DNA from: Azolla caroliniana
Taxonomy: Eukaryota; Plantae; Polypodiophyta
Assembly (NCBI GenBank): GCA_043228905.1
Contig: JBHGNT010000010.1
Coordinates: 5,704,001 to 5,768,000, forward strand
Direction: 5' to 3'
Length of the DNA: 64,000 nucleotides
The position numbers were made by a program, and so were the translations under genes. Positions 5,527 to 46,352 of this stretch are shown here, piece after piece; position 1 is the stretch's first letter; the number at the start of each line of letters is the position of its first letter. The notes under the pieces were generated by a model. The model ran no database searches, had not been told where the DNA came from, and saw nothing but the letters and a program-made list of their open reading frames with translations.

Positions 5527-5920
5527 CTAGTAATGTGTGACGAGCCATGTCAAGATTGGTAAGGTAAGTGGTGTATATAACCCCACGATAGGTGCAATCC
5601 TTGAAGGAAACCTTGGTAAGGTCAAGTATCAAGGATTGGTATGCTAAGTGCTATATAACCCCACGATAGGCGCAACCCTTGAAGGAAACCTTGGTAAGGT
5701 CAAGTATCAAAGATATTATTTTTGAAGTGTGAGAGCGTCACGTGAGCCTAGTTTTGATCGGTCTTCATTCGCCTAGAACTAGAACCTTTACGTGCGCACA
5801 CCCGTCCACCTATCAATTCTAGTTGTTGACAAGCCTTTGGTTTTTTGTGTTGTGGGCTTGGGACGCGTAGAATCACTCATTTCTGGAACAACTTTTCAAT
5901 CGTTGTCGACATGGTATCGA
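5527..5920 (+). mobile_element. Possible decayed LTR fragment with an internal ~78-bp duplication, ending ...CGACA followed by a Met-PBS-like TGGTATC
   Basis: Duplicated tataaccccacgatagg..gaaggaaaccttggtaaggtcaagtatcaa; cgaca|tggtatc at 5907-5918. Confidence 0.35.
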
Positions 5921-8757: not shown

Positions 8758-8810
8758 AGCCTGAGCTCTCTCTCTCTCTCTGGGGTTTATCTCTCTCCCC
8801 TGTTCCTGGG

Positions 8811-8864
<54 letters not shown>

Positions 8865-18323: not shown

Positions 18324-18361
<38 letters not shown>

Positions 18362-20926: not shown

Positions 20927-21155
20927 GCTTCCACATTTCGATAAGTCGAACCTGACTCGGCTCCAGTTGTCTATAGTGACAGTCAGGGCGTTGTCGCTCT
21001 GTCAAAAAAATATGGTTCATCACAACACCTCAAAGCACATCGACATTCAATATCACTTTGTTCAGGACTATGTAATTTCAGGGAAAATCGGCCTCGAGAA
21101 GATATCTACATCTGATAATGTCGCAGATGGGATAACCAAGTGTCCTTCCGCAGAT
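20927..21155 (+). pseudogene. Copia RNase H C-terminal fragment, probably the continuation of copia A
   Basis: SDSQ...HHNTSKHIDIQYHFVQD..LEKISTSDNVADGITK. Confidence 0.7.
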
Positions 21156-21281
21156 GGGAGTAACGAAGAATCAGTCTGGTTAAGTCGGACACTTAGGATG
21201 TTTTCGAACTATTCACTTCGACAGTTCTGTTACCAGTTACGAACACAGTCCACCCTCAGTCCTTCGGGGTAGCTTACAAGG

Positions 21282-22393
21282 TGATCGTGGTGCAAGGGAA
21301 TAGGGATGCGTAGTGCGTGATTTGTAAGGCGTACGAGGTTCACCAGATTGTGTTGTGACGTGGCTCACCTAGAAGCGTAGCGTTGCGCAGACAAAAGATA
21401 ACGTGAAAGTGAGGAAGGAATCGTTGGGATTATGGACGGAAGAGATGAAAGAGTAGAGATGGAGTGAATAGAGATCAATAAGATATGACAAGATAGGATT
21501 TTTAAGGAATATAAGATATGACAAGATAAGATATAAAATAATATTTGAGAAAATATATGAAATTTATAATCATTTTCATGAAAGAGTTACAAAATGGTTG
21601 CAAGTGTCGTTGAACCTTCAATTCTTGTCTTGCAAGGTAACCACCTTCCTCTTTCTTAATAGTAGACCATAGTCTTCCCTTCAATCTCTCGACAAGTATA
21701 AGACTCGAACCACCGCCCTTCCGTTGCGAGTTGAGGACCACAACCACCAAGCTAGTTCTTCTCTCTAGATCAAATATAATATATCATTATCTAGATCCAA
21801 TATAATCCTCTCAATCTTATTTCTTAGGTTCTTTTGTCTATACTTCCTTCTCCTTTTATAGGGAAGAGATGGTTCTACATGTGGGGCATGTGGCGCACAT
21901 GCAGAGAGGCTCTTGCATGTGTGCTATATGGTGCACATGTACCACGTTTGATGGTTTAAACCATATAATACTACTTCAAATAAAAACAAGACACATGTTT
22001 ATATACATTATAAGTATAGGCTAAATGGTAAGGTTTGAACGCCATAAGGTTGAGGTTGTTGGTTCAAGTTCTCTTGTGCCCATGTAATTTGCTATATGGT
22101 GTGCATGTATTATATTACATGGTTTAGACTATAAAATACTACTTCAAATCATATATTATTTTGTAAATTATCAGTATAGGCTAAATGGTAACCTTTGAGT
22201 GTCATAAGGTAGGGTTTATTAGTTCAAGTCCTCTCTTGTCCATGTAATATAATAGATGTATATATTTTTGTCTCTACATATAATGTATAACATTATCATA
22301 GTATGTTATTAACATTATAAAGGTTTATTTTATTTTCATTACGTATTTATCTTATTGTAGACTTTTAATGTGAAGCTTTCATACTTCACGACA
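21282..22393 (-). mobile_element. Probable solo LTR of the ..CTTCACGACA family, containing two tRNA-like A/B-box repeats
   Basis: The right end cttcacgaca is identical to the ends at 14068 and 43574. There is a minus-strand TATA at ~21853-21861 and a candidate 4-bp TSD AAGG/ACGG. The left boundary is uncertain. Confidence 0.5.
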
Positions 22394-25300: not shown

Positions 25301-26672
25301 CTCTTTATCTGTCTTTGTCTCTTCGCAGATCCATCGTTGTCGACCTTGTCTTACTGTCTTCGTTCATCCTAGCCGTCGTCCCCAGTCATCTCCATTGTTC
25401 AGCACGAATGGCCTTGTCTTTCTAGCTGTCCGGTTGTCGTCCCAATCGTTTTCGGTCCGGCCATCATTGTTGTCGATTTCTTCGTCATTCCGATTGTCGC
25501 TATGATTATTTCTTTTTTTTGTTATCATGGCCATTTCCAACACATTGTGGTCACCATTTCTTGCACATTACCGATTTGATTTGCCACACATCATCAATTC
25601 AATTTCTCGCACATCATCGTCATCATTATCTCACATTTCGTTGTATTTGTCTCTACCACGTATTAGTCTTCTTCGACTTCGTCTCGAAAGGGGGGTCGCC
25701 TTAGTGGTCGCCAAATAGTGTTGTACGTTTTAGGGTTAGGGTTAATGGTAATGATGATTATCGATGACGAAGATAGAAATGGTGGAATAGTGAAGATGGA
25801 CATGGTGATGGAGAGTATGATGGTGAGAGAGATCATGTAGAGAAGCATTGTGGGGTGGGGGGTGGTGCCTAGAATGGCTCCACCCCCCTCCCATGGGGAT
25901 TCAACGTTAAAGGGGAGAGAGAGAGAGAGAGAGAGATGACAAAGAGAGACGGGAAGATAAAGAAGCAAATGAAACAACGTGGACAGAAAGGAAAACGAGG
26001 GAAAAAGAAAGAAGAATAGAAACGAACAAGAAGAAAGAAAAAGTAAACCTGGCAGCGGGAAAGAAGAAAACGGAGAAGAGGAAGCAAAGAATGATATCAG
26101 AGACAGGAAAAAGAAGAAGAAGAAGAAGAGAGAACCATAGGAATTTCGAAACTACTTTCGAAAAAAAGAAAAACCTAAGGGCATTGTTGGAATTATAAAA
26201 ACATGAGGGTACATGATACAATTTTCAAAATCCAAGGGCATTGTCATTGGTTTAGAAAATTTCAGGCTACAATGCTTAAATTTAAAAACTCATCCACCTA
26301 AAGAAATGGACGTGATCGACCACGGCAACTCACAAAATCAACAAAAGGAAGATACACATACACACAACATTTTGGGACCCATGACGAAGTTCGTAAGTCG
26401 ACAGAACGAGAATGTTCGTGTCGCGGAAGATTTGCTGACCAACAAAGATGTTCGAGTCAAGCACTCCGATCGAGGGAGTCGATCGTTGAAAGGACCGATG
26501 GAAGTTCCGGTCGAAGAAATATCATCATCAAGGCATGTGGGATCGACATGCAAGGCACTCTCCCACGGGTGTGCCATATTGTGTTACCCCGTACAAGATG
26601 TACGGAGAGTCAATGTGATGAGCGAGGGTCAAATGTTATCATGATGATTGTTGTGTGTGTAGGGGGCATAAA

Positions 26673-26865
26673 TGTAATTGTGAGTCGATATGTATGTGAA
26701 CACATGCACATGTGTGTGCATGTGGATGGATACGAGGAGGTGTGAGTGAGTGTCCACTATGAATGCTCTAGGGGGCTTACACCCCTTTGTATCTACCCCC
26801 TCTTGTACTATTTAACTCCTTATGGGGAATGAATGAAACAAGAATAATCATTTTTCTCTCTCAAC

Positions 26866-26898
<33 letters not shown>

Positions 26899-27116
26899 TC
26901 TTCCCTTTCCCTTATGTTGAACCCCCTTGGGAGGGGGGTGGAGCCCTTCTAGGCACCACCCCCCACCCCACAATGCTTCTCTATGCTTCTCTATATGATC
27001 TCTCTCACCATCATACTCTCCATCACCATGGACTCTATCTTCATTACCAATCATCATAATTATCACCAATAATCAATCATGATTATCATTAACCCTAACC
27101 CTAAAATCATACAACA
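26673..27116 (+). mobile_element. LTR (444 bp) preceded by a PPT (AGGGGGCATAAA) and followed by a tRNA-Arg-type PBS; inverted partial copy at 25719-25935
   Basis: TGTAATTG...ATACAACA termini. 25704-25935 is the diverged reverse complement of ~26865-27131. Confidence 0.7.
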
Positions 27117-27121
27117 CCTTT

Positions 27122-27160
27122 TGGCGACCACGATGGGATTCGAACCCACGACCTTTGGAT
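27122..27160 (-). other. 39-nt copy of the 3' half of a mature tRNA (probably tRNA-Arg), including CCA
   Basis: The minus strand reads ATCCAA AGGTC GTGGG TTCGAAT CCCAT CGTGGTC G CCA. This maps to the anticodon-stem 3' strand, variable loop, T arm, acceptor strand, discriminator and CCA. Confidence 0.8.
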
Positions 27161-28905
27161 ATCATGTCTCCGCCATCGGAAGCCTGATGTACGCAAAGTT
27201 GTGTACCCGGCTGGATATCATATATGTAGTCGTAGTGGTCAGCCGTTTCATGAGCAATCCGGGAAGAGAACACTGGATCGTGGTCAAGTGGATACTCTGG
27301 TACTTGAAAGGTACCTCGAGTATGTGCCTCCGATTCGGCTCAAGAAAACCCTAACTTGAAGGATTCACGGATTTGGATATGTCGATTGATGCGGATACCA
27401 GCCGGTCTACATCCGGGTATGTCATGACTTATGCAGGGGGAGTCGTATCGTGGTAGTCGAGGTTGCAAAAGTCCGTTGCACTATCGACAACAGAAGTGGA
27501 CTACATGGCGGTCGTGGAAGCCGATAAAGAGGTAATCTGGATGAAGGACTTCATCAAAGAGTTAGGGATGTCATCCACCTCGCGAAGAACGTGGCCTACC
27601 ACTCACCGACCAAGCACATCTAGAGGAGATATCACTGGCTCCGGGAGAAGGTGGAAGATAAAGAGTTCTTGCTGACGAATATCCATACGGAGGCGAACAG
27701 GTTGGACATGCTGAACAAGTTGTTGTTAGTTGACAAGCTAGACGTGTGTAGGAGACGGGTAGGATTGACAAGACATCCCATGCCACAGTGAAGGGGGAGC
27801 TTGTTGGGAATTTGGTCCCTCCAGATGAGAATCGGAGGAACCGAACCAGATAGATCCAGAAGGTATATGGATGGATCCGGTGTGAACTGGATCCAGGGAC
27901 ATATCTGTAAATATGTTTCTAGAGTGCCTATCAAGGCCATATATGTAAATATTCGTAAAGTCATATAAGTATAAATATGACTTAGGGCAATCACTTATGC
28001 AAGGGGGTTGTTGTTATCATTGTATAGAGATACAACGATATATGAGAGAGAGAGAGAGATAGATAGATAACTTGTTTTCTATTGTAATCGCCGGTTGGCG
28101 AAGGCATAAAGCTCGAGGTCGTCGCCTCTGAGTCTCGCAATTGTACCCCTTTCTCTTATAGTGATATTTGGAGTCTGTAGGCTCCCGTGGCTTTTCCCTA
28201 TTAGGGTTTTCTAGGTAAACATCTTGTGTCCTCTCTCTTCTATGTAAGTGTATTAACCACCATTTCTATTTTTTGTTCTTCCATTGAGTGATTAAGACTC
28301 GGTTGTGGCCTATCACCATTCCGCACACCAACTACGTGTAATGATTGTGTTGCAACAATCATACTAACAATCACACTACATTGATTCAGCGAAGTCACTG
28401 GCATGCACTAAGGTGAACTCATTCACTAAGAGTTGAAATCATTCACAATCTATTAATCGCACGCACTAATTTCATTCACCTCAAACACAATCAAACCATT
28501 CAAAAAGAGTTTGCATTCTCGATCATTCACTAAGAACTGAAATCATTCTCGAACTAAATCATTGAAGAAGAGCTGAAGTCATTCACTTCATTCATGTGCA
28601 TTATCAATCACTGTTGAGAATCAAGCTCAACCTAGCCTAGTGTGTGAACACACACCCTTGAGAGTGTATGAACACTCAAAGGTCAAAAGTCACACCACTA
28701 CTCTTTACACATTAACTATGTGTCATAGAATCATATTCTATGACACATAACTAATGAGTTTCCACATTCCCCGTGACTCATGAGCTTCGGTAGTTAATGA
28801 AGAGAGAGAGAGACTATATAAAGCACTCTCCTCCTACTTTGTAATATGACGGTTATCTCCTTTGTAATATACAATCTTCTTGAGTATTTTCTATTACCTA
28901 TCTTG

Positions 28906-28962
<57 letters not shown>

Positions 28963-31310
28963 ATACACATCTCTAACCTATTCCGATGCACAAGAATCAC
29001 CATCATTTGTTTTCATGGTATTAGAGTGATTTGATAGCTTGGTCTAGCCCACTCGTAACCATGTGTTGTGTCTACCCCGACAATTCAAAGAAATCTGGCT
29101 CATCGCTATCGTAGTGCCGCTACATAGCTCATATTCAAGAGAGAAGAAGAAGGAAGACATCTACATCGAACACCATGAATACTCAAATGGGGACCGCTCT
29201 CCCTAGCGAGAATTTGGACCGAAACAACTTCGCATCTTGGGAGTACAAGATGCACCAATACCTTGTCGATCAAGGTTATTGGAGCTACATCAAAGGAGCA
29301 CAAGAAAATCGACCCGACCCAAAGGACACTGACTACTCAACATGGGAGCAAGTGGCAAGTCGAATAATGTATTGCTTGGCGACATGTGTTCATGATCATA
29401 TGCTCGGCTACATTAGAGAAGCCAAGATGCCAAAGGAAGTGTGGGAGAATCTACGAAATATTTTCGCTGCCAACACAACTGCGAGAAAGCTTCAACTTTG
29501 CCAAGAGTTGAACAACATCCAACAATAGGACATGTTCATCACAAGCTACACCTTGAAGATCAAGGAGCTTTGTGACTTGCTCGGCTCAATAAGCGTCAAT
29601 GTGGATGATGATGAGATGGTGCCAATATGCCTCGGCGGTCTTGCACCACGGTTCGACGCGATGAGAACCGTTGTCCTAGCAAGGGAGAATCCTCCCTCAT
29701 TATTCGATCTTCAAGCCATGTTGTTGGTTGAAGAAAACCATGTTCGAACAAGGAGCAACACCTCGGAAGGCCACATGCTCTACACACATTCGAATGGAGG
29801 AAGAGGACATAACCGAGCAAGAGGCCGATTCAGCCAAGGACAAGGCGAACGAGGTCCGACTTACGATAACAACTCCCAATTACAGCAACAAGACGGAAGC
29901 TATTGAGGAACCTTCAGAAGAAGGGGGAGTGTCAAGACTGAGAGAGAGAAAGAGAGAGAAAAAGAGATAGAGAGATAATTGAAAGAGAATTATTATATTG
30001 AAGCGTAAAATGGATTACAAAGAGTAGGCTACAAAATGGCGTTGAACCAATTTAGGTTTGGGATGGGTGGTAGATCCCTATTTATAAGTAATAGAGAACT
30101 CTCTAGAATATTCTAGGTTATCCTAGAATGTAGAGTAATCTAGAAGATCTCTAGAGTATTCTAGAAGGTTCTAGTGGTATAGAACACTCTAGAATATTCT
30201 AGGTCATTCTAGAATGTAGAGTAATATAGAATATTCCTATGATATTAGATTTCATATTCTAGAGACTATACATATAAGAATATTAATACAATGGTTAAGG
30301 ATTTGACATGTGTACAACAGGGTCGTGGGTTCAAATCCTTTCGAGTCATAATGTGAGTGTCATGATCCTTTCGATGCATAATGTGACTGTTATCATGACA
30401 CTATCCCCCTTCTTCGACGACACGTCTCACGGGTCGTAGGGTTTGTATTAGGACCTGGTTTACAAGGATATTGGCGATGAAATGCATTGACGAGTTCTGC
30501 AGCATTGGAAAGATTTGTGGCAGGTTCCCAAGTTCGATCATTGGGGGTATAGCCTAGCCAATCGACCAAGTAATACAACTTGTTGCGCACGATTTTAGAA
30601 TCGAGAACGGCAGCAACTTCAAATTCAGGCCCGTCCAAGAACTCGATGGTGGGGGTGTCGTAAGACGGCCCGGAATTGAACTTGTAGTATAAGGTTCCAA
30701 AAGGGATACATGAAACACCGGATGAAGATGCATGTGCGGAGGGAGGTCAAGACGAAATGCAACATCACTTATCTTACCAGTGATCATGTAAGGGCCAAAA
30801 CGTTGGTAATCCAATTTACTGCAAGGTCGAGTGGTCTTGATGTTGTGTTGGAGAAGCCATACATGATCCCCAATGCGGAACTTTTTTGAGGAGTCTAGAC
30901 GATGACGATCGGCAAGCCTCTTGTGTGTAAATTGAGCATCGTGCAAATTGTGGAGAATGTTAGCTTGAATTTCTTGGAGGCGACTAAGACGATCCTCGGC
31001 AGCAGGGTTGGTAGGAACTTCTGGATGCGCATTCATCGTCCATCGAGGATGACAGCCCGTATTTGCGAAAAATGGGGAATATCCTGTAGAAGAATGGGTT
31101 GAGTTGTTGTAAGCGAATTCCGCCAAGTGCAAAAATGCAACCCAATCATCTTGTTGATAGTTGATGAAACAACGAAGATATTGTTCCAATGTCTGGTTGG
31201 TACGCTCTGTTTGGCCATTTGTTTCAGGATGATAGCCCTGTTGGGATTTCGGTCCCTCCGGATGGGATGTCCGGAGATGAATGACGGCAAGCCCGGTTGC
31301 GGTTACGGTG

Positions 31311-31460
31311 CCGGATGATGAAGACCCCGGCTACGGAGCCGGATGATGAAGACCCCGGCTACGGTGCCGGATGATGAAGACCCCGGCTACGGAGCCGGAT
31401 GATGAATACCCCGGCTACGGAGCCGGATGCTGAAGACCCCGGTTACGGAGCCGGATGACG
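31311..31460 (+). repeat. 28-bp tandem repeat in the 5' LTR U3 region (5 copies; 7 copies at 36131-36336 in the 3' LTR)
   Basis: Unit CCGGATGATGAAGACCCCGGCTACGGAG. The 56-bp LTR length difference equals two units. Confidence 0.92.
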
Positions 31461-31974
31461 AATGTACCCGGAGGGAGATCCGGATGCGGGGACATATTTG
31501 TGAATATGTTTGCCAAGAGCCCTTGAGGCTATATTTGTAAATAGCCCGAAAGTCATATGTGTATAAATATGACTTAGGGCAAACAGTTTATGTTGCTGCT
31601 TATTTTTCTGTTTTTCCACTCAAGGGGAGTGAAGAGAGAGTAGCCGTGAGAGAGAGAGAGAGATAGAGCGTGAGAGACGAAGAGGTAGACGCCTCTGTGT
31701 ATTTCCGCCGCCTGTGGCGAGGACAGCGAGCTCAAGGTCGTCGCCTTGCAGCTCGCCATTGTATACTTCTCTGTATAGTGTTTGGTTTGGAGTCTTGTAC
31801 TCCCGTGGTTTTTCCCGTCTAGGGTTTTCCACGTAAAACATCCAGTGTACCCTTCTCTCTATTGTTTTCGTGCATTGTTGTATTTCCCGTTTTCTGTGAA
31901 TCGATCCAGTTCCTCGGTTGTGGCCGAGCACGGAATTTCGACAAAGTGGTATCAGAGCGACGGTAACACAGAAA

Positions 31975-34900
31975 ATGGAAGGCGGCAGCAGCGGGCAGCC
32001 GGGGATGATGGTGCTGAATGCGCAGAACTACGTCGACTGGAAGATAAAGATGGAGGATCTGCTCATTGTTCGGGACCTGTATGAACCGATCGACAGGTCG
32101 GAAATACCCAAGGGGGTACTTGAGACGGAGTGGAGGCTTCTGAACCGGAAAGCCGTTGCAACCATTCGGCAATACGTCGACGTGAGCGTTCTACAACACG
32201 TGGCGAACGACACCAACGCATATGAGATGTGGAGGAAGCTGTCGGGCCTCTACGAGAGGAAGAATGCGTTGAACCGAACCTCCCTGATGAGAAAGATAGT
32301 GAACCTCAAGTATCGGGACGGCGAGAGTATGGTGGAACACGTAAGCACGTTCATGGGATTCGTGAACCAGCTTGCGGCGATCAAGTTCCCGTTGGAGGAT
32401 GCAATGCAAGCCATCATTCTGATGTGTACATTGCCGGAAAGCTGGGAGAACTTGGTGGTGACTCTCAGCACCTCCTGCACCGAAGATAACTTGTCTCTAC
32501 AAACGGTAAAGACAAGCATTTTGAACGAAGAAGCGCGTCGGAGAGATAAAGAACCGGCCTCCGACTCGAAGGCGCTGCTTACCGAATCGGATCGGGGAAG
32601 ACAATGGAACCGGAGTCCGCAAAGACGGGAGAAGTCGGGGACCCGGTCGCAGTCAAGAGGAAGGCCCACATGCTTCCACTGTGGGAAGCCGGGGCACTTC
32701 CGGAAGAATTGTCGGCATTACCGAAAGGACAACGGAGCCGACGACACCGATTCGAAGAAGTCACCGGAGAGAAACGGTGCATACCGGGGAGCCACGGACC
32801 GGAGAGGTCCGGATCGGCGAGGGCAGGACCGGAAAGGAACGACGGCACTCGCGGCAAGTGAAGAAGAGATAATGCTCATTACCGAAGAGAGGGAGCTGAA
32901 CCTTGCCGGTGTAGAGATGACCTGGGTGGTCGATTCCGGAGCGTCGTTCCACCTGACCCCGGAGAAGAAATACTTCTCATCCTACACAGCCGGTGAGCAT
33001 GGCTGTGTCCGGATGGGAAATGAAGGCACATGCCGGATTGCCGGCATAGGAGACGTGTGGCTGATGACATCAACCGGATGCAAGATGCTGCTGAAGGATG
33101 TGCGACACGTTCCGGAAGTCCGATTGAACCTGATCTCGGCCGGGAGGCTAGATGATGAAGGCTACACGGGTAGCATCCGGAACGGTGTCATGAAGTTCAG
33201 CAAGGGGAGCCTGATAGTGGCTCGGGCCCGGAAGGTCAACACACTGTACCTGATGAACTCCCGGCTATGTCCGTAAGAGCTGAATGTGGCAGCCGACACT
33301 GCCGGTGAGCTGTGGCACAAAAGACTGTGCCACATGAGTGAGAAGGGGATGAAGAGGCTTGCAGAAGACAACCTTATCCCAGTGAAGCATGTGCACCTGG
33401 AAAAGTGCACCGATTGCCTGGCCGGTAAGCAGAACCGAACCTCCTTCCACTCAAGGCCACCGACGAGACGTAGCGCACCATTGGAGTTGGTGCACACCGA
33501 TGTGTGTCAGGTAGAAACGAAGTCACATGGCGGAGCCCAGTACTTCGTAACATTCATAGATGATCATAGCCGAAGACTGTGGACGGCACCGATGAAGACA
33601 AAGGACCAAGTGTTGTCCGTCTTCAAAGAACTCCACGCGAGAGTGGAAAGAGAATCCGGCAAGAAGCTGAAAGCGATACGAGCGGATAACGGAGGGGAAT
33701 ACCGGGGGCAGTTCCAGGAGTACTGTCGCTCGAAGGGGATCCGGCTCGAGTTTACTGTGCCGAAGACGCCGGAACTGAACGGGCTGGCCGAGAGGATGAA
33801 CCGGACCATAATGGAGAGGGTCTGGAGTATGTTGGCGCATGCGAAATTACCCAAGGGGTTTTGGGCTGAGGCAATGTCGACGGCGACGTATGTGATAAAT
33901 AGATCACCCTCAGTACCTTTGGACGGAGACACGCCGCAGAAAGTGTGGACCGGTAAGGAAGTGTCCTACCGGCATCTGAAGGTGTTCGGGTGTCTCGCAT
34001 ACGTGCATGTGGCAAAGGACCGGAGAGGAAAGCTAGATCCAAAGACCCGGCCATGCATATTCCTCGGTTACGGCGACGACGAGTTCGGCTACCGAGTATG
34101 GGACCCGGTCGACAAGAAGATATTCAGGAGTCGAGATATCATCTTCATGGAGAACAAGACACTCGCCGACTGGGAGTCGGAGAAGAAGATGAAGAGCTCC
34201 AAGTCGACCGGTGAGGATCAACTCTACGAGGAGCAGTCCCGACCGGCAAGGGACCGGTTAGCTCTCGAGGATCCGGCCGAAGACGGTGAAGAAACAGAAC
34301 CGGCCGAAGAAGATGAAAATGATACCGGAACCGGCCCCGATCCCGAAATGGATTCGGATGAAGAAGAATCGGAAGAACCGGTTACCGAAGCTCCGGAACG
34401 GAGATATCCTCTAAGAGAGAGAAGGGCCCCCCGGAGATTTCCGGAACCAGAGCACGTGCTGCTAACCGACGAGGGGGAGCCGGAGAGCTTTGAAGAAGCA
34501 AAGCATGACACCCAGAGCCGCAGGTGGTTGAGTGCCATGCAGGACGAGATGGATTCCCTGCATGAGAACCACACATATGAACTTGTGGAGTTGCCGAAAG
34601 GAAAGCGGGCACTTCGAAACAAGTGGGTGTTCAAGCTGAAACCGGGAGATGCCGGAAACCCCCCGAGATACAAAGCCAGGATCGTGGTGAAGGGGTTTCA
34701 GCAGAAGAAGGGCGTCGACTTCGACGAGATATTTGCCCCGGTAGTGAAGATGACCTCCATCCGGACGGTGCTGAGCATAGCGGCAAGCATGGACCTCGAG
34801 GTAGAACAGATGGACGTGAAGACGGCATTCCTTCACGGTGACCTCGAAGAAGAGATCTACATGCAGCAACCGGAAGGATTCGAGAAGAAAGGGAAGGAGC

Positions 34901-36048
34901 ACCTGGTATGCCGGTTGAAGAAGAGCCTTTACGGACTGAAGCAGGCTCCCCGGCAATGGTACCGGAAGTTCGACTCCTTCATGACCGACGAAGGGTACCA
35001 CAAAACGCAGTCCGATCACTGCGTGTTTGTGAAGAAGTTCGAAGGAGGAGACTTTCTAATACTCCTCCTATACGTGGACGACATGTTGATCGTCGGACGG
35101 GACCAGGTCAAGATACGGATGCTGAAGAAGGCTCTTCACCGAACCTTCTCAATGAAGGACCTGGGTCCGGCGAGGCAAATACTAGGGATGCACATCATCC
35201 GGGACCGGAAGAAGAAGCAGTTGTGGCTGTCACAGGAGAAGTACGTGACAAAGGTGCTTCACCGGTTCAACATGTCGGAAGCAAGACCGGTCGGGTCAAC
35301 CCTCCCGGCAAACTACAAGTTGTCCAGCAAGCAGAGCCCCAAGACAAAGGCTGAGAAGGAGGACATGATGAAAGTACCATATGCCTCTGCCGTCGGAAGC
35401 TTGATGTACGCAATGGTGTGTACAAGACCGGACATAGGATACGCAGTCGGAGTGGTGAGCCGGTACATGAGCAATCCCGGCAAAGACCACTGGAACGCGG
35501 TCAAGTGGATACTCCGATACCTGAAGGGCACGGCAAACGTGTGCCTCCGATTCGGCTCCGGTAAGCCCGAACTCGACGGCTTTACCGATTCGGATATGTC
35601 GGCTGATGAAGATACCAGTCGGTCCACATCAGGGTATGTGATGACGTATGCAGGGGGAGCTGTTTCGTGGCAGTCGAGGCTGCAGAAGACGGTTGCGTTG
35701 TCAACCACGGAGGCGGAGTACATGGCGGCTGTTGAAGCCGGCAAGGAAATAATATGGATGAAGGACTTCATTAGAGAGCTCGGTATCCGGCAAGAGGAGT
35801 ACCGACTCTACTGCGACAGTCAGAGTGCCATCCACCTTGCGAAGAACGCGGCCTATCACTCCCGGACGAAGCACATCCAGCGAAGATATCACTGGATCCG
35901 GGAAAGGATAGAAGACCAGGAGTTCATGCTGACGAAGATCCACACGGAAGAGAACGGGTCAGATATGCTGACCAAAGTGCTCACACCCGACAAGCTGGAA
36001 GCGTGCCGGAAGAGGGTCGGATTGGAGAGACATCCCATGCCGAAGTGA
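31975..36048 (+). pseudogene. Copia gag-pol polyprotein in a single frame with one premature TAA (33274-33276)
   Basis: ORFs 31918-33276 and 33286-36048 are in the same frame. Motifs: CFHCGKPGHFRKNC, WVVDSGASFH, LWHKRLCHMS, VHTDVC, YVDD, FTDSD. Confidence 0.92.
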
Positions 36049-39000
36049 AGGGGGAGTTTGTTGGGATTTCGGTCCCTCCGGATGGGATGTCCGGAGATGA
36101 ATGACGGCAAGCCCGGTTGCGGTTACGGTGCCGGATGATGAAGACCCCGGCTACGGAGCCGGATGATGAAGACCCCGGTTACGGTGCCGGATGATGAAGA
36201 CCCCGGCTACGGAGCCGGATGATGAAGACCCCGGCTACGGTGCCGGATGATGAAGACCCCGGCTACGGAGCCGGATGATGAATACCCCGGCTACGGAGCC
36301 GGATGCTGAAGACCCCGGTTACGGAGCCGGATGACGAATGTACCCGGAGGGAGATCCGGATGCGGGGACATATTTGTGAATATGTTTGCCAAGAGCCCTT
36401 GAGGCTATATTTGTAAATAGCCCGAAAGTCATATGTGTATAAATATGACTTAGGGCAAACAGTTTATGTTGCTGCTTATTTTTCTGTTTTTCCACTCAAG
36501 GGGAGTGAAGAGAGAGTAGCCGTGAGAGAGAGAGAGAGATAGAGCGCGAGAGACGAAGAGGTAGACGCCTCTGTGTATTTCCGCCGCCTGTGGCGAGGAC
36601 AGCGAGCTCAAGGTCGTCGCCTTGCAGCTCGCCATTGTATACTTCTCTGTATAGTGTTTGGTTTGGAGTCTTGTACTCCCGTGGTTTTTCCCGTCTAGGG
36701 TTTTCCACGTAAAACATCCAGTGTACCCTTCTCTCTATTGTTTTCGTGCATTGTTGTATTTCCCGTTTTCTGTGAATCGATCCAGTTCCTCGGTTGTGGC
36801 CGAGCACGGAATTTCGACAAGCCCGAAGAAAGCTTAACTGAAATGTGGAGAAGTTTGAACAGGTGCTTCCAAAACTTTGAGATGAATTGTGGACCACGAT
36901 CACTAATAATATCATCTGGCAGACCATGATGCTTAAATACCTCCCGCATAACGAGATCAGCCGTCTCTTGACTAGTAATCGACTTTGTACATGGCAAGAA
37001 ATGTGCCATTTTGGTAAATCGATCAACCACTGTGAGAATTGCATCAAAACCTTTTGAAACTGGGAGATCAGTAATGAAGTCCAAGGATATAGACTTCCAA
37101 GGTGTTTCCGGAATGGGAAGTGGTTGTAGTAAGCCATAGGGTCGGTGACGAGGATTCTTTGATCGACAACATATATCACAACTCCGAACATACTCCTCAA
37201 CAAAATGACGAAGGCGAGGCCACCAATAGCGTCGAGAAATTAATTCTAGAGTCTTGTGAACTCCAAAATGACCAGCCATTGGTGAGTCATGGCAATGTTG
37301 CAAAACTTGTAGCCGTGGGGGACCATCAGGAACATACAATAAATTTTGTCGAAATAGAAAACCATCATGCCAATAGAACTGACAATAGTCATTACGAGGA
37401 TTTTTCGACTGTGAGCAAGAAGCACGATCCGGGACGATATGATCCAAAACATCCTTGGCGAAATCATCAGTGGCCATATGATCTCGAATGGAATCAAGAA
37501 GAGTGGAATTTTCAAGAGCTGTTATGGCGTTAACTACCATTAATCGTAATCGATTAGGACCCAAAAGGATTTGTTTTTGATGCTCAAAAGCAGGTTCCCC
37601 AGGACGAAGTTCCATATAAGAGCGCCGAGAAAGAGCATCTGCTTTGCCTTGTTGCATCCCAGGGCGATATATGATGATAAAGTCGAAGTGAGTCAAAAAT
37701 TGCGCCCACCAGGCTTGTCACCGACTCAAGACTCGAGCATTTTGGAAATAAGTCAGGTTCTTATGATCATTGTAGACAATGATCTGCTGAGAAGAACCTT
37801 CTAGGAAATGTCGCCATTGTTGAAACGAATCCACGATTGCAAGAAGCTCTTTGTCATGGATCTCGTAGTTGATCTCTGCAGCTTCAAACTTTCGTGAATG
37901 AAAGGCGACAGGGTGTAGTTGTCCATCATCTCCAGTCTGCGAGAGGACACTCCCTAGTGCAAAATCGGATGCATCGGCTTCGAGGATGAAGCGTTTTGTT
38001 GGGTCGACATGTGCTAAGATAGGTGCTGTTGTAAATGCTCGTTTTAAGCTTTCGAATGCCTCGGATGCATCTGAACTCCATATAAATGGTTGATCTTTAT
38101 GTGTGAGCCGAGTAAGCGGAAGCACAACCTTGGAATAATCTTTAATAAATTTTCGATAAAAATTTGCAAACCCGAGAAAACATTGCACATCACGCACTGA
38201 AAGGGGCGTTTGCCACTCTAAAATTGCCTGTACCTTTATGGGGTCCATAGCAATACCATTTGACGATACAACATACCCCAAAAATTCCACTTGATTCTGG
38301 CCGAAACTACACTTTTCTAATTTTGCGTAGAGACCATATTCTCAGAGTCGGCATAATACTTGACGAACATGTGCATCATGCTCCTCTTGGGTCTTTGAGT
38401 AGATTAAAATATCATCTAGGTAAACTATAGTGAAGATATCAAGAAAATCTCGAAAAATATCGTTCGCCATATGTTGGAAAACAGCAGGTGCATTCGTGAG
38501 ACCAAATGGCATCACTGTATACTCAAAATGTCCATAGCGAGTGCGGAAAGCTGTCTTCCATTCATCCCCCGGGCGAATCCGAACTAGATTATATGCTCCG
38601 CGAAGGTCCAACTTCGTGAAATATTTTGCACCACTGAGACGTTCCAAAAGATTCGGGATTAATGGTAGAGCATATCTATTTCGGATAGTCACTTTGTTTA
38701 GCCCTCGATAATCCACGACCAACCGAAGAGTCCCATTCTTCTTCTTAACGAAGAAGATAGGTGCACCATCAGGGGATCTAGAATGCCGAATGAATCCGTT
38801 TGCCAGATTCTCATCAATATATTCCCGCAAAGTCTCTAGCTCTACAGGGGAGAGATTATAAATTGGGCCCCATGGAGGTTCTTTCCCTGGTTGTAAGTCA
38901 ATAGGGCAGTCGTATGGCCGATGCTCTGGCAATGTATTGGCCTTCACCTTATCAAAGACATCTGAAAACTCCTTGTATTTCTCTGGTAGTTTAATATCCG

Positions 39001-39573
39001 CGTCACGTGAAGTGGATGATGGAGTTGCTACTATTGCGAAGACGAACATGGCCTCGTTCCCCCCTTCCTCCCGCAACTGTCGTAAAGAGATGGGCGATAA
39101 CTCTGGGGATCTATTAGCACATGTAGGAGAGAGGGATGCGGGATTTGTGCTTTTTTCCCGAGTCTCCTCAATTGTTCTTTTCATCCAATCAATCTTCGGG
39201 TTATGGAGTTCAAACCAGGGGAGACCTAGAACTATTGGGTGGTCTGGACTACGAATAATATTGAAAGAGATTATGATTGCCAAATTGCCAAGAACTATCC
39301 TAATTGGCTCGGACTCCTCGACTATATCTCCTGATGCTATGGGACGTCCATCGATGACTCCTACGGCTACTGGGTTGGGAAGCTTATTCAAGAGGATGTT
39401 TTGTGACAAGGCAAATTCACGATCCATGAAACAAGAGTTGGCTCCAGAATCTAGAAGGGCAGAGGCTAGGACTCGATGACATGTAGATGTGGTAAGCTCG
39501 ACTTGTGCTGAAAAAACTCGACTCACTTGATTTGATGAAATGGAACCACGACTAGGAACTAACTCTACATAGC

Positions 39574-39625
39574 TAGGATGGTCCAGCCAAATGGCTCCTA
39601 TTTTGGCCGGACTTACTCGTTTAAC
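39574..39625 (-). promoter_or_regulatory. Predicted -1 ribosomal frameshift signal (G UUA AAC, 6-nt spacer, H-type pseudoknot)
   Basis: Pol is in the -1 frame and overlaps the gag end by ~43 nt. There is an 11-bp stem GTCCGGCCAAA/TTTGGCTGGAC, and loop TAGGA can pair with the downstream TCCTA. Confidence 0.8.
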
Positions 39626-40737
39626 ACATCCTCTAATTGACTCAAGACATCGAATCTATTCTCATGACATGGACTATGAGGCTTATTTATGTTATTAGAA
39701 GTAACAATAGAACTCGATGTAGGGTTTTCATGGGCACTTACTTGGTATACTTGACGCCTAGGTTTATGTGGACAATTTACAGCTATATGTCCTGGACCAC
39801 CACAATACAGGCAGAGGCGATGCGCTCGACGTCGTTGCTTCTCAGCATCTGATAACGGCCCACGACGTTGTGTTGACTCTATTTCCATCGGAGTTGGGCC
39901 ATCCCTTGTAATGGGTCTAGAAACTTGTGGAGGCGTTGCGACTACGGAAGCGTAAGTCTGTTCAGGTTGGTGGCGTAACATTTGTTGGCGCTCAGAACGT
40001 CGCTCAAATAGGCGATTATCACATCGCACAGCTCGACTAATGGCTTCTGTAAGTGACTTCGGATCTTCAGGGAAAGTAAGAAGAAGATCTTTGACATCAT
40101 TTCTCAAACCTTGACGGAATTGATCCATTAAAGCTGCCTCATCCCAAGGGATATCGCATGCCAAGAGACGGAAATCGGCTGCATAAGATGACGCGGGACG
40201 ATCTCCTTGTCGGAGCCTTCGAATCTTGTTTATCGCTGTCCTAGTGCTGTCGGTGTCTCCGAAACTAGCTTGAAACTCTTTAACAAAGGCCTCGAAATCC
40301 TCCAGCAATGGTGATTTCTTCTCGAGAAGTGGTGCGAACCATGCTAACGCCGTACCGCATAGCAAAGTTCCCACTAATCCCACACGAGCAGCATCAGTTG
40401 GATACCGATTGGGATGTAGCTGAATAACTAAACGAACTTGATTCAAAAAGCCTCGAAATAAAGACCTCGTACCATCAAACTTTGCAAGGAGGCTGATCTT
40501 TGGCTCTCTAGGGGAGTTCTGAGCCCCCGACGCTTGCTCTCGTAATGACAATATAGTCGCCTCAAGTTGATGAACCCGCTGTGATAACTCTTCATATTGT
40601 TGAGCTTTTTCGGCGCTCACGTGTTGTAGATCTCCAAGTAGCCTTTGATTCTCATGCTCTAATGCCACAAATTTATTCGTGAGCATGTCGAGCTCAGAAA
40701 GAACACGCATGTATTCTTGTTTGCTCACGGACTCCAT
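39613..40737 (-). CDS. gag: Chromovirus Gag, 374 aa (coiled coil, PEG10/RTL1-like capsid, CCHC knuckle)
   Basis: [57 protein letters not shown]. Confidence 0.93.
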
Positions 40738-40811
40738 AGCTTATGAGGGGAGAGGAGAAGGAAGAAGAGAACTTGTTAGGGTTTGTGGAAGACGAAGAGA
40801 TGAAAGGAAAA

Positions 40812-40823
40812 AAATTGGTTCAA
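40812..40823 (-). promoter_or_regulatory. Non-tRNA primer binding site (TTGAACCAATTT) complementary to LTR positions 40938-40949
   Basis: Perfect 12-bp inverted match, located 2 nt downstream of the 5' LTR end. No TGG-type PBS is present. Confidence 0.75.
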
Positions 40824-42924
40824 ACTGTCAAGACTGAGAGAGAGAAAGAGAGAGAAAAAGAGATAGAGAGATAATTGAAAGAGAATTATTATATTGAAGC
40901 GTAAAATGGATTACAAAGAGTAGGCTACAAAATGGCGTTGAACCAATTTAGGTTTGGGATGGGTGGTAGATCCCTATTTATAAGTAATAGAGAACTCTCT
41001 AGAATATTCTAGGTTATCCTAGAATGTAGAGTAATCTAGAAGATCTCTAGAGTATTCTAGAAGGTTCTAGTGGTATAGAACACTCTAGAATATTCTAGGT
41101 CATTCTAGAATGTAGAGTAATATAGAATATTCCTATGATATTAGATTTCATATTCTAGAGACTATACATATAAGAATATTAATACAATGGTTAAGGATTT
41201 GACATGTGTACAACAGGGTCGTGGGTTCAAATCCTTTCGAGTCATAATGTGAGTGTCATGATCCTTTCGATGCATAATGTGACTGTTATCATGACAGGGA
41301 GCTTCCATTTCGGTTCAAGCCGACAAAACTCGATCGAATGCGGATATTGCGGCAAAATCGGTCACCATGAAGAAGAGTGTCAAAAGAAGATGTGTGAGTC
41401 AGCTTCCACTAGCCGACGACTCACCAATTACGCCACCAACTCCGACTATGAAGATCATGGTGGAATGTTCGTAATGAGACATAGAGAAAATTCTATGTCG
41501 ACCTCTACTTCGACTAATGCCTCCAATCCGGAAGATGTATGGTTCATCGACTCCGGTGCTTCGAACCATATGACGTCCCATCAAGAATGGTTCAAAGTTC
41601 TTCGAGATCTGGATCGACCCGATTATGTCGAGACCGGAGACAACACCACTCATCCGATTTGGCATGTCGGCAATGTCCCATTCGAGAAAGAAGGTGAACA
41701 AACTTGCATAAAAAATGTCTTGCATGTACCCACCATAACGAAGAATTTGGTCTCGGTCGGCCAAATTGTGGAGCAAGGGATGTAAGTTCGATTCAACCAA
41801 GGTAGTTGCTTCATCAAGAAGGAAGTTCGACTAATTGCTCGTTGTCGAAGGGAGGGCCGAATGTTTATCCTCTAAGCGAACGAGGTAAAATTGGGCATGT
41901 TTGCAAAGGGCCTCAAAACCGACACCGACATAGAGTTATGGCATAAAAGAATCAGTCATATCAATCTCAACAAACTCAAGGCGATGTAGTCGAAAGGAGT
42001 CGTCATTGGGCTCCCGACCTTCAAAGAGAAAGAGATTGAAGGAGTATGTGAAGCATGCCAATTCGGCAAGTAACATCGGCACCCATTCCAGAAGGAGAGG
42101 AACGTGAGCAATGGCCTATTGGACGTAGTCCACTCGGATGTGTGGGGACCAGCACAAACAACCACAGTTGGAGGATGTCAGTACTATGTTACCTTCATCG
42201 ACGACTGCTCTAGATACACATGGATCTTTCCCATGAGGATGAAGAGCGAAGTGTTTTCACACTTCCAAAAATTCAAAAGAGAAGTCGAAAAGACAATTGA
42301 CTGCCATGTACGATGTCTTCAGTTAGACGAAGGAAAGGAATACTTCTCTGATGCGTTCATGGCATACCTTCGACAGGAAGGAATTCGGTGAGAACTCACT
42401 TGCCGACACACACCGCAACATAATGGTGTAGCCGAATGCAAGAACCAGCACATCCTCAAAGTAGCAAGGTCCATCCTAAATGAGAAGCATATGCCCAAGT
42501 CATATTGGGTAGAATTTGCAAATACCTCCGTCTACCTCATGAACCGGTGCACAATAGCCGGAGTGCACAAGGTCACCCCGCACGAGAAATACTATGGGAA
42601 GAAGCCGGATCTATCCCATGTAAGGATATTCGGCTCCATTGCATACGTGCACATTCCCGATGAGAAGCGGCAGAAGCTTGACCCAAAGTCAGAGAAGTGC
42701 ATCCTCGTGGGATACTCACTAGAGCAAAAGGGGTACAAGTGCTTCAACCCCTCTACTCAGAAGGCTCGTGTAAGTCGGGATGTCATCTTTGACGAATCGA
42801 CATCATGGTACAAACCCGAGCCGACTCCTCCCGAACCATCTGCGAATGACCTCGACAACACAGAAGACGATGATCAACTAAGGTCAATACTTGAAGAGAG
42901 TCTGATCTCAACCAGATTGAGCAG

Positions 42925-43574
42925 TGTCGTGAAGATCCGTCACTACGTGCGGATTGTGAGGCGGAACCACCAGGATCCTAGACTGGAAGGATTCAAAGTT
43001 TGCACTAGCTTTAGCAAGAAAGGATGTAAGATAGATTGAGAGAGAGAGATCGATATTAAGATTCCAATTTTGAGACATATTGAGAAAAAGAGAGATTGAA
43101 CCTTTGACTTCAATTTTGAGGGAGAAGATACATCACCAATAGGATAACTAGTTTTCTTAAATTTAATTTTGATATAAAGTACAAAGCTTGCTTGATTTCC
43201 ATTCCTTTCTCCTCTACTCTTTTATAGATGCCCCCATCATATGATGCATGTGAGGGTACAAGACATGCATACAATGCATGCTTGCCATTTTTGCATTCAT
43301 GCATGATGACCATGTCACTCATCCAAGCTCTCATGTATGGGAATTTATATGTGAAAGTATAGTGATGAAAATATAACTTTTAAAGAAATGATTTGACTTA
43401 GTGGTAAGTCTATTGGCTTCTACCTTGGGAGTGTAAGGTTCAAGCCTTGCTTGCATCCCTTTCTATGCTCAAGATATTACTAGGCTTTAGTCTTATGTTT
43501 GAGTACACATTACACCTTCTTGATTTTGTTTGTTTCACACAATTTTCACACCATTGCCGAAAATCTTCACGACA
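42925..43574 (-). mobile_element. Solo LTR (650 bp) of the TGTCG..CGACA family, inserted in copia D
   Basis: 12-bp terminal inverted repeat TGTCGTGAAGAT/ATCTTCACGACA, flanks GCAG/GCAA, minus-strand TATA at ~43219-43227. Confidence 0.8.
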
Positions 43575-44624
43575 GCAAACCACAAAAGCCTCCGAGCAAC
43601 CAAAGCATATCTCGGCCAAGTCCAAAGATGGACAAAGGGAAGGCCAAAATGCTGGAATATGAAGACAATCACTTTTATGACAACGAATCGACTCACTCAC
43701 TCGATAGTGAGTTTGATGGCTTTGATGAGCCTCTTATGAGGTCACTTGGAGTTAAGAAAGCACTCACATCGGCAAATGAGAAACTTAGTCGCTCCACCCG
43801 AGAGAAGAATCTGGTTAGCCGATTCGGCTACAACAACTATATGGCATATCACTATGCCTTTATGATGAAGGTGGCAGCGGTTCGAGAACCGGAGAGCTTT
43901 GCCGAACCCGCTAAAGATCCGCGATGGGTCAAAGCGATGAACGAAGAGATGCAAACTCTCAACAAGAACGAGACATGGGATCTCGTCCCTCACTCACTGC
44001 ACAAGAAGGCAATCGGCTGCAAATGGATATACAAAGTGAAGTATAATGTCGACAGTTCCGTCAACAACTGCAAAGCTCGACTCATAGCAAAGGGCTATGC
44101 ACAAACACATGGAGTTGACTATGAAGAGACCTTTGCCCCAGTGGCAAAGATGACGACCGTGCGCACCGTGATAACGCTTGCTGCAGCGAAAGGGTAGCAC
44201 CTCCACCAGATGGATGTCAAGAATGCCTTTCTTCAAGGCGAATTAGAAGAGGAGGTGTACATGGTACAATCACCCGGCTTCGAATCCAATATTCATTTGA
44301 AAGTCGTCCGCCGACTCCAGAAGCCTCTCTACGGCCTTAAGCAAGCATCACATGCTTGGCACTCTAAGATAACACAATATCTTCATCGAATCGGCTTCTG
44401 AATGTAAAAATCTGACAATTGTCCCTATGTAAGAAGCGATTCTGAAAGTCTGATTGTCATCATCCTATATGTGGATGATCTGGTCATTGGAGGTGAGCAT
44501 CTAGTCAACATCAACAAGGTCAAGTCCCTCCTCTCCAGCAAATTTGAGATGACAGACATGAAAGAGCTCAATTACTTCCTTGGCATTGAGGTAATCCGGA
44601 CTCCAACCGAAGTAATGATCTCTC

Positions 44625-45060
44625 TGTTACCGGCCGGCAAAGGAGTCCAGAGTGGGAAACGGAGAGTTATTTAAGTAGTAGGAATGTGGTTGCAATTAAG
44701 CTATGAGTGTGGACGGACGGACCGGAAACGGTATGCCGTTCCGGATCCGGACCGATCCCGAACAGGTGCGGATGGCACCGTTTTGTAATACAGACCGGAA
44801 ACCTATTTAAAGGCCCGGATACAATGTAATAGTGAGCAGTTAATTAATGAAAGCTTAAGCGTTGTTATCTCTCTGTGTTAATTGCCGTTCTGTCTTAATT
44901 GTTATATCTTACACGTGTGTTATGAAAGACGATCCTAATATGTAACTTAATTAAGTCGGATTAAGCATTGAAGTCTAATCCGGTTGCCGTAACACCCTTT
45001 GGTGAAGTGTCTCCCGTAGACACCCTGTGTTAGGCCATTGTCCGGCCCGAAGAGTTAACA
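44625..45060. mobile_element. Solo LTR (436 bp) inserted in the RT of copia D
   Basis: TGTTA..TAACA termini and perfect TSD CTCTC (44620-44624/45061-45065). The host frame (VMISQRHY) rejoins across it. Confidence 0.85.
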
Positions 45061-46287
45061 CTCTCAACGTCACTACATACTCAACTTGTTATACAAGTTT
45101 GGGATGACCGAGTGCAAATCTGTGGCAACCTCTCTCGATCGAAACCTCAAACTGGATGCCAATTCTGGCACCACAGAGTGTGAGCCGGCACACTATTGAC
45201 AACTTCTTGGTAGTCTCATCTACCTCACGATCACTCGACTTGACCTGAGCTATCCGGTCGGCCTCCTTAGCCAATTCATGCAAACTCCACGAGATATCCA
45301 TTTGGATTGTGTTAAGCGAGTGCTACAATATGTGAGCGGAACGATGGACTATGGTATTCTCTATAAGTTGGCCACGCTAATTCAACTCGAAGGGTACACA
45401 GATGTTGATTGGGCCAGCTACAAAGCCGATAGATGATCAACCTCTGGTTTCGTCTTTTCCCTCAGAAGTGGAGCCATCTCCTAGAGTAGCAAGAAGCAAC
45501 CCATCGTCGCTCTTTCGAGCACAGAGACAGAATACAGGGGCGCGACGGTGGTTGCATGTGAAGCCGTATGGCTCAAGAGGATATTGAAGGATCTGAGCGT
45601 TCCCATCAAAGATCTGATTCCTCTTTACTGTGATAACATGAGCAATATTCATCTGGCTTGGAACCCGGTGTTCCACGCATGCACGAAACATATCGAAGTG
45701 CACTATCACTTCATTCGAGAGCGCGTTCAGGCTGGAGATGTCGACCTTCAACACATCAGTACGAATCTTCATACAACCGACATCTTCACCAAACCCCTGG
45801 GAGCCAACAAGCTTCGGCAATTCATGTCAGACCTTGGATTGATGCTCCCTTACTTGCCAAGCTTGAGGGGGAGTACATCTGAACAGGGTTCAGCCGAAAC
45901 GGACACCAAACAGAGAGAACTGAATACCGTTCGAATTAGGTACCAGCCGAAGTGGACAAGCCGACCAAAGTTGAGCTCAAGGGGGTGTGTTGAGAATCAA
46001 ACTCAACCTGGCCTAGTGTGTGAACACACCCTTGAGAGTGTATGAACACTCAAAGGTCAAAAGTAACACCACTACTCTTTACACATTAACTACGTGTCAT
46101 AGAATCATATTCTATGACACATAACTAATGAGTTTCCACATTCCCCATGACTCATGACCTTCGGTAGTTAATGAAGAGAGAGAGTGAATATATAAAGCAC
46201 TCTCCTCCTACTTTGTAATATGACGGTTAATCTCCTTTGTAATATACAATCTTCTTGAGTATTTTTTATTATCTATCTTGTGTTTCT

Positions 46288-46352
<65 letters not shown>

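What the first reader, a model, noticed from the sequence alone, without database searches (positions are those of the whole stretch)
40812..40982. Plant chromovirus apparently primes reverse transcription with its own 5' end (Tf1-type self-priming, no tRNA PBS)
Seen: 2 nt after the 5' LTR end, the minus strand reads TTGAACCAATTT rather than a TGG-type tRNA complement. Its exact complement AAATTGGTTCAA lies inside the LTR (40949-40938) and starts 33 nt downstream of the first T of a TATAAATA box (40982-40975), where transcription should begin. Known: fission-yeast Tf1 anneals the first ~11 nt of its mRNA to the PBS and cleaves them off as a primer, and this mechanism has been proposed for related Tf1/sushi/Tcn1 chromoviruses. 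Most plant LTR elements use tRNA primers. Inference: this young element self-primes through a 12-bp duplex closing a ~114-nt loop.
Basis: partly seen in the sequence, partly recalled or inferred. Interest (0 to 1): 0.85.

Follow-up and report, generated by a model that had tools for sequence, protein, structure and literature searches.

The report
Self-priming plant retrotransposon, Tcn1 type
This broken plant jumping gene has no tRNA-type primer site; instead, 12 letters after its left repeat pair exactly with 12 letters inside that repeat, and relatives change both sides together, so it likely starts copying itself with the front end of its own RNA, a yeast mechanism already predicted for this group of plant elements.

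Summary
The 12-mer 2 nt after the 5' LTR (40823-40812) is the reverse complement of 40949-40938, 33 nt from a TATA box; 1 of 5000 LTR shuffles does as well. The element is a chromovirus of the fungal/vertebrate Tf1/sushi group, most likely plant clade Tcn1. Of 78 related loci, 37 hold both arms: 26 pair 12/12 and all pair at least 10/12. Eight of 12 pairs change on both sides (0 of 500 shuffles reach the covariation score). Self-priming is therefore likely (about 0.88), but the transcription start and the cleavage were not observed. It is not new: REXdb predicted self-priming for 83% of 1500 plant Tcn1 elements by the same criterion (PMC6317226). What this adds is covariation support. It also finds no predicted Tf1-style three-duplex structure. 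The LTRs are identical, but this copy is dead (two stops, a frameshift, a nested copia). The scan noted similar self-complementary sites in other genomes, mostly in copia elements, but no look-alike of this gag.

The parts
41297..41301 (-). target-site duplication CTCCC, 5' side
40826..41296 (-). 5' LTR, 471 bp, TG...CA
   Evidence: 471/471 identical to the 3' LTR
40975..40982 (-). TATA box TATAAATA
   Evidence: a TATA-like box lies 32-34 nt before the primer in 33 of 37 relatives
40938..40949 (-). predicted self-primer (12 nt; predicted +1 at 40949, pyrimidine/purine at -1/+1)
   Evidence: start site inferred, not mapped
40824..40825 (-). 2-nt spacer GT between the LTR end and the PBS
   Evidence: same spacing in the relatives
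40812..40823 (-). primer-binding site, exact complement of the self-primer, no TGG
39613..40737 (-). gag (Retrotrans_gag, Ty3_capsid, DUF4939, CCHC knuckle); frame open
36821..39655 (-). pol, first part (PR-RT-RH-integrase), in a frame overlapping the end of gag; in-frame stops at 38344-38342 and 37720-37718
31239..36820 (+). nested Ty1/copia element inserted in integrase (TSD AGCCC, site TGGTATCAGAGC); not part of the Tcn1 element
30396..31238 (-). pol, last part: integrase C-terminus, SH3_Tf2-1, then a frameshift and the chromodomain (PF00385, E 2e-14) with F/W/Y aromatic-cage-type residues
30404..30415 (-). polypurine tract
   Evidence: a similar tract precedes the LTR start in 20 related loci
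29930..30400 (-). 3' LTR
29925..29929 (-). target-site duplication CTCCC, 3' side

Best explanation
This is a defective copy of a Ty3/gypsy chromovirus of the Tf1/sushi group, most likely plant clade Tcn1, whose family likely primes reverse transcription with the first 12 nt of its own RNA. Shown: the duplex, its position, its covariation across relatives and the group placement. Inferred steps: (1) TATA-directed transcription starts at or near 40949; (2) nt 1-12 fold back onto the PBS across a 114-nt pyrimidine-rich loop; (3) as in Tf1, the element's RNase H cuts after nt 12; (4) RT extends that 3' end through GT, U5 and R; (5) plus-strand synthesis may copy the primer and so regenerate the PBS, which would keep both arms matched. 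This copy would need proteins from another copy in trans.
For: Exact 12-bp duplex; 1 of 5000 shuffles match it. It forms in the predicted fold: z -3.0, mean pair probability 0.91. Of 37 relatives holding both arms (out of 78 loci), 26 pair 12/12 Watson-Crick, 30 do so with G-U allowed, and all 37 pair at least 10/12; there are 8 distinct perfect sequence pairs. An unanchored inverted-repeat search found the same 12-bp duplex in 23 of 52 loci with enough upstream DNA. On 28 aligned rows, 8 of 12 pairs change on both sides; covariation 0.431 against 0.147 +/- 0.018, 0 of 500 shuffles, and all slid registers score lower. On a gag tree at least 23 of about 30 position changes per arm coincide. The loop varies from 114 to 237 nt while TATA spacing stays at 32-34 nt in 33 of 37, and -1/+1 fits the plant YR rule in 34 of 37 (rule in PMC1832190). 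RT-RH sits with fungal and vertebrate elements, apart from Lolium, Tanacetum and Closterium rows (SH-aLRT 100). Size, TSD, overlapping gag/pol and chromodomain fit REXdb Tcn1.
Against: No transcription start, cleavage product or cDNA was observed. The duplex is predicted equally well with 0-345 nt of extra upstream RNA, so folding does not fix +1. The host tRNA set could not be searched. The Tf1 side duplexes are not predicted in this copy, and the one downstream of the PBS is absent in essentially all rows, although Tf1 is reported to need three duplexes. Seven of 37 relatives have 1-2 unpaired positions. My anchors fixed PBS positions 1-4 and primer positions 11-12, so only pairs 1-8 are informative. 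The relatives are assembled contigs, mostly of one accession series, and can be chimeric. The tree is a quick search with no named Tcn1 reference. Novikova 2010 found no sign of self-priming in Selaginella SM-Tcn1.
Confidence: 0.88

Rival explanations
1. The duplex is a real, selected RNA structure (for packaging, dimerisation or translation control), but priming uses something else, or the primer comes in trans from a second copy of the element's RNA.
For: Covariation alone shows pairing, not priming. The Tf1 three-duplex structure is not predicted here.
Against: One arm sits exactly at the PBS position and the other at the predicted +1, with constant length and TATA spacing. No other primer site was seen. 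The same layout is the tested mechanism in Tf1. Priming in trans would still be priming by the element's own 5' end.
Confidence: 0.08
2. A host tRNA or tRNA fragment primes at this site, and the LTR match is incidental. Some primer variants resemble a tRNA T-loop motif.
For: A box-B-like pattern (consensus recalled) overlaps the primer in 21 of 38 rows. The host tRNA set was not searchable.
Against: The site does not begin with TGG, which a mature CCA end requires. There are 17 PBS variants among 53 rows, and the LTR arm tracks them, which a tRNA primer would not cause. The motif is absent from 17 of 38 rows.
Confidence: 0.03
3. A chance inverted repeat in an AT-rich LTR.
For: The LTR holds other inverted repeats, for example a 14-bp palindromic unit in U3.
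Against: 1 of 5000 shuffles; kept with two-sided changes across 25 gag clusters, 17 of which have a perfect duplex; arm permutation 0 of 10,000.
Confidence: 0.01

Closest known systems
Plant Tcn1 clade of chromoviruses (REXdb; PpatensLTRs of Physcomitrella, SM-Tcn1 of Selaginella)
   Same: LTR-complementary tract of at least 10 nt starting 0-5 nt after the 5' LTR (the REXdb criterion, met by 83% of 1500 Tcn1 elements); 5-bp TSD; 5780 bp without the nested copia (range 5466-9444); overlapping gag and pol; chromodomain with aromatic-cage-type residues; closer to fungal than to seed-plant elements.
   Different: No named Tcn1 sequence was available for a direct comparison. REXdb predicted self-priming from complementarity alone; the passages and table I read give no covariation or TATA-spacing analysis. 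Novikova 2010 saw no self-priming signal in SM-Tcn1.
Tf1/Tf2 of Schizosaccharomyces pombe and the Tf1/sushi group (Tj1, Tosmo1-3, sushi-ichi, Cryptococcus Tcn1)
   Same: The 5' end of the RNA is predicted to pair with the PBS; no tRNA site; chromodomain integrase; SH3_Tf2-1 domain; gag looks like PEG10/RTL4/Tf2-type gags.
   Different: 12-nt rather than 11-nt primer. The three-duplex 'pretzel' is not predicted: one side helix appears in 16 of 31 rows but not in this copy, and the other is essentially absent. Self-priming is tested in Tf1 and untested here.
TAR lineage of Ty1/copia (Houba, Osr-1)
   Same: Plant elements also predicted to self-prime, 89% in REXdb.
   Different: Other superfamily and domain order; no chromodomain.

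Membership tests
Ty3/gypsy chromovirus | gag, then PR-RT-RH-INT order, with a C-terminal chromodomain | tested here: met
Tf1/sushi group | RT-RH groups with fungal and vertebrate chromoviruses, not with seed-plant or algal ones | tested here: met
   split supported at SH-aLRT 100 in a quick tree of 65 rows, midpoint root; nearest named row is Cunninghamella (65% identity), seed-plant rows 43-46%. Long branches are flagged, and the rows are labelled by organism, not by element clade.
Tf1/sushi group | PBS complementary to the element's own LTR instead of a tRNA | tested here: met
Tf1/sushi group | the self-primer is the 5' end of the transcript | tested here: inconclusive
   TATA spacing and the YR dinucleotide fit; no start site was mapped
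Tf1/sushi group | three-duplex 'pretzel' structure, as in Tf1 (reported for several members) | tested here: inconclusive
   not predicted in this copy; one side helix in 16 of 31 rows; the second essentially absent. Folding prediction only.
Tf1/sushi group | RNase H cleavage releases the primer | not testable with these tools
   needs biochemistry
Plant Tcn1 clade (REXdb) | RT/RH/INT falls inside the clade of named Tcn1 references | not testable with these tools
   REXdb FASTA and element table are too large to read; no named Tcn1 among the hits
Plant Tcn1 clade (REXdb) | chromodomain with aromatic cage | tested here: met
   F, W and Y are present in the Chromo match; cage positions judged by eye from recall
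Plant Tcn1 clade (REXdb) | 5-bp TSD, 5.5-9.4 kb, gag and pol in overlapping frames | tested here: met
Plant Tcn1 clade (REXdb) | host is a moss or lycophyte | tested here: inconclusive
   A PPR gene in the window matches land plants only at about 30-38%. Its N-terminal part scores best on the lycophyte Diphasiastrum among named rows (median 59 bits against 33-39), but the whole protein scores best on rows labelled Gb_ (read as Ginkgo, recalled).

The most novel reading that the evidence does not exclude
This plant lineage self-primes with a stripped-down signal: one exact 12-bp duplex whose first 8 pairs are free to drift, needing none of Tf1's three-duplex pretzel, with the PBS rewritten from the primer in each cycle. 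Its host may be a lycophyte outside Selaginella, which would widen the known range of Tcn1.
Probability: 0.35. Interest if true: 0.4.

Novelty: new member of a known kind. Interest (0 to 1): 0.24.

Why it matters
Self-priming is experimentally shown in Tf1 and, in the papers I could read, only predicted for plant Tcn1; one paper found no sign of it in the Selaginella element. The two-sided covariation across about 25 gag clusters is good comparative support for that prediction. It also gives a precise testable claim: start at 40949 and a cut after nt 12. A specialist would expect the result, so the value is confirmatory.

Tried and rejected
No whole genome is held, so host tRNAs and other genomic copies could not be searched; ARAGORN finds 0 tRNA genes in the window. 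IMG/VR scan: 19 pattern matches, none confirmed. Sequencing runs: no RNA holder listed. Both layings were contigs only and cannot show a start site; the PBS side was skipped as a repeat. Cluster look-ups gave no organism names for the close relatives. PDB search gave Ty3 as the best solved relative and no Tf1-group chain among the 60 shown. The careful tree did not finish, so the quick tree was used. My first primer anchor mis-picked L022 and L031 and was corrected. One line printed ('PBS starting TGG') came from a coding error and is not used. A Pol III box-B reading of the primer was rejected: 21 of 38 rows only. The host gene at 8838-7519 has no Pfam family and gave no host clue. Lin & Levin 1997 and Atwood-Moore 2006 are not held; I saw only their titles in a reference list. 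Searches for a covariation study of plant self-priming listed none, but subscription papers (Butler 2001, Goodwin & Poulter 2001) and REXdb Additional files 1 and 3 were out of reach and may already list such primers.

Full report
Observation. The element lies on the minus strand. Its LTRs are 41296-40826 and 30400-29930, 471 bp each and identical at all 471 positions, with TG...CA ends and a CTCCC target-site duplication. After the terminal CA come GT and then TTGAACCAATTT (40823-40812), the exact reverse complement of 40949-40938. TATAAATA is at 40982-40975, 33 nt before it, and the loop is 114 nt. The duplex cannot be extended on either side. Of 5000 dinucleotide shuffles of the LTR, 1 gave a 12-nt complement to a tract starting 0-5 nt after the LTR and 10 gave 10 nt or more. 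The copia nested in the element has a TGGTATCAGAGC site (tRNA-Met type, label recalled) and only a 5-nt LTR complement. RNA starting at 40949 folds the duplex in both the minimum-energy and centroid structures (z -3.04, 1 of 200 shuffles; mean pair probability 0.91).

The element. Gag (40737-39613) is open and carries Retrotrans_gag, Ty3_capsid and DUF4939; a CCHC knuckle scores just under its cut-off. Pol overlaps the end of gag in another frame and runs PR-RT-RH-INT-SH3-chromodomain. The chromodomain has the F/W/Y residues of the aromatic-cage type (positions judged from recall). This copy is dead: it has in-frame stops at 38344 and 37720, a 5582-bp copia at 31239-36820 inside integrase, and a frameshift before the chromodomain. 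Without the copia it measures 5780 bp (my arithmetic). It is itself inserted in an older, decayed copia whose LTRs start at 28612 and 45988. It is 96.4% identical to relative L001 over 3918 nt. Identical LTRs with a damaged interior suggest mobilisation in trans (inference).

Placement. A quick maximum-likelihood tree of RT-RH (65 rows; the careful search did not finish) separates the window, fungal, frog and fish rows from Lolium, Tanacetum and Closterium rows with SH-aLRT 100. The nearest named row is the fungus Cunninghamella (65% identity to the L001 query), against 43-46% for seed plants. The only gag relatives listed with an organism name are from the fungus Cetraspora (54-59%), and the Atlas look-alikes of a 97%-identical gag are PEG10, RTL4 and Tf2-type gags. 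That is the Tf1/sushi group. REXdb lists Tcn1 as its only plant branch, with a 5-bp TSD, 5466-9444 bp, mostly overlapping gag and pol, a chromodomain in 100% and self-priming in 83% of 1500 elements (PMC6317226: passages and Additional file 5 read). No named Tcn1 sequence was available, so formal membership is likely rather than shown. The host is a land plant by its PPR gene. The gene's N-terminal part leans to a lycophyte and the whole protein does not, so the host stays open.

Relatives. One metagenome scan with a gag alignment gave 260 confirmed stretches, of which 78 loci were kept. Of these, 13 have under 40 nt upstream of gag and 13 showed no LTR end or PBS by my anchor. In those 13 no TGG-type site was found, and one (L053) has a variant of the same site. 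Fifteen have the PBS but no primer site on the contig, and 37 have both arms. Of the 37, 26 pair 12/12 Watson-Crick, 30 do so with G-U allowed, and all pair at least 10/12; 7 have one or two unpaired positions. Eight different perfect primer/PBS pairs occur, counting the window. Among 17 distinct arm pairs, own pairing averages 11.1 against 8.4 +/- 0.4 when arms are permuted (0 of 10,000). The anchors fixed PBS positions 1-4 and primer positions 11-12, so only pairs 1-8 carry information. An unanchored search found the same 12-bp duplex in 23 of 52 loci with at least 250 nt upstream.

Covariation. I aligned 28 of the 35 rows that have both arms in the 5' LTR, leaving out six near-duplicates (L010, L026, L037, L044, L052, L060) and L029, which lacks upstream DNA. 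96.7% of cells pair; pairs 1-8 all show changes on both sides (52 cells). The covariation score is 0.431 against 0.147 +/- 0.018 (0 of 500 shuffles), and every slid register scores 0.13 or less. Those shuffles ignore relatedness, so I also mapped the arms on a gag tree: parsimony needs 31 primer changes and 30 PBS changes but only 38 joint-state changes, so at least 23 coincide. The 37 loci form 25 clusters at 90% gag identity, 17 with a perfect duplex. The loop ranges from 121 to 237 nt, while the TATA-like box stays 32-34 nt upstream in 33 of 37 and -1/+1 is pyrimidine/purine in 34 of 37. That fits plant promoters, where TATA peaks near -35 and 77% of Arabidopsis starts follow the YR rule (PMC1832190, passages). 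In four public runs, close family members show no listed difference within 40938-40949 but differ at 40950, 40956, 40957 and 40962 (contigs only). Caveat: the loci are assemblies, mostly of one accession series, and may be chimeric; the three L025-type rows with one G-U pair may be such cases.

Mechanism. In Tf1 the first 11 bases pair with the PBS and RNase H cuts between bases 11 and 12 (PMC7175516, passages). The same layout is proposed for Tj1 (PMC4600332, passages). By analogy this family would start at 40949, fold nt 1-12 onto the PBS, cut after nt 12 and extend through GT, U5 and R. These steps are inferred. If plus-strand synthesis copies the retained primer (suggested only by the title of Atwood-Moore 2006, seen in a reference list), the PBS would be rewritten from the LTR arm and covariation would follow directly. 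Against a strict Tf1 match: Tf1 is reported to need three duplexes (bioRxiv 10.1101/2022.12.06.519325, passages). Here a side helix between R and the U5 end reaches 3 or more expected pairs in 16 of 31 distinct rows but only 0.7 in the window, and pairing of the loop with sequence downstream of the PBS is near zero in 30 of 31. The central duplex has mean probability 0.8 or more in 24 of 31 rows. It forms equally well with up to 345 nt of upstream RNA, so the start site remains unmapped. A tRNA primer is unlikely: there is no TGG, there are 17 PBS variants, and the LTR arm follows them. The host tRNA set itself could not be searched.

Novelty. Neumann 2019 states that most Tcn1 elements lack a tRNA PBS and are predicted to self-prime, using complementarity of at least 10 nt starting 0-5 nt after the LTR, which is this finding's criterion. 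Novikova 2010 (PMC2864245: sections 5 and 6 and passages read) found no such signal in Selaginella SM-Tcn1. Four searches (listings only) showed no covariation study or experiment on plant self-priming, but key subscription papers and two REXdb supplements were unreadable. Earlier notes of this scan describe similar sites in at least 10 other genomes, mostly in copia elements (not checked here), and none resembles this gag. Verdict: a real feature and a well-supported new member of a known kind; interest 0.24.

Noticed in passing
window 28612-46348: Three-level nest: an old decayed copia holds the Tcn1-type element, which holds a copia with long open frames and near-identical LTRs (31239-36820). 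That copia has one in-frame stop at the junction 33274-33276.
   Followed up: partly
window 40938 (run X1, table 7): One contig matches the LTR from the primer's edge onwards, and its loose part looks by eye like an LTR end plus spacer on the other strand, i.e. a possible inversion junction at the 12-bp repeat. It could be a library chimera, a rearranged copy, or the trace of self-priming from an RNA that started upstream.
   Followed up: no
window 40938-40949 vs L031, L033: On the gag tree the window sits beside L031 (primer ATTCCGG type), yet its primer equals that of the distant L033 group, and the best LTR matches among distant loci are to the L032/L036 group: convergence or LTR/gag recombination.
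   Followed up: partly
window 40944-40934: The primer's 3' half plus the next bases fit a Pol III box-B-like pattern (consensus recalled) in 21 of 38 rows; probably coincidental.
   Followed up: yes
L066, L067: Distant relatives (about 50% gag identity) keep the same LTR-end, spacer and PBS frame but with a 10-11-bp duplex of different sequence and a TATA 36-38 nt upstream; their host is unknown.
   Followed up: partly
window 41160-41000: The U3 region holds repeated palindromic CTAGAATATTCTAG-type units; related units occur in the L032/L036 group and L050.
   Followed up: no
window 61134-59212 (-): Host PPR gene; closest hit is an unnamed protein at 55%, named plants only 30-38%, N-terminal part leaning to the lycophyte Diphasiastrum.
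   Followed up: partly
window 8838-7516 (-): 440-codon open frame with an acidic C-terminal half and no Pfam family; probably a large exon of a host gene.
   Followed up: partly
window 15300-28300: Further fragments of copia elements about 75-84% alike to the nested copia, on both strands.
   Followed up: no
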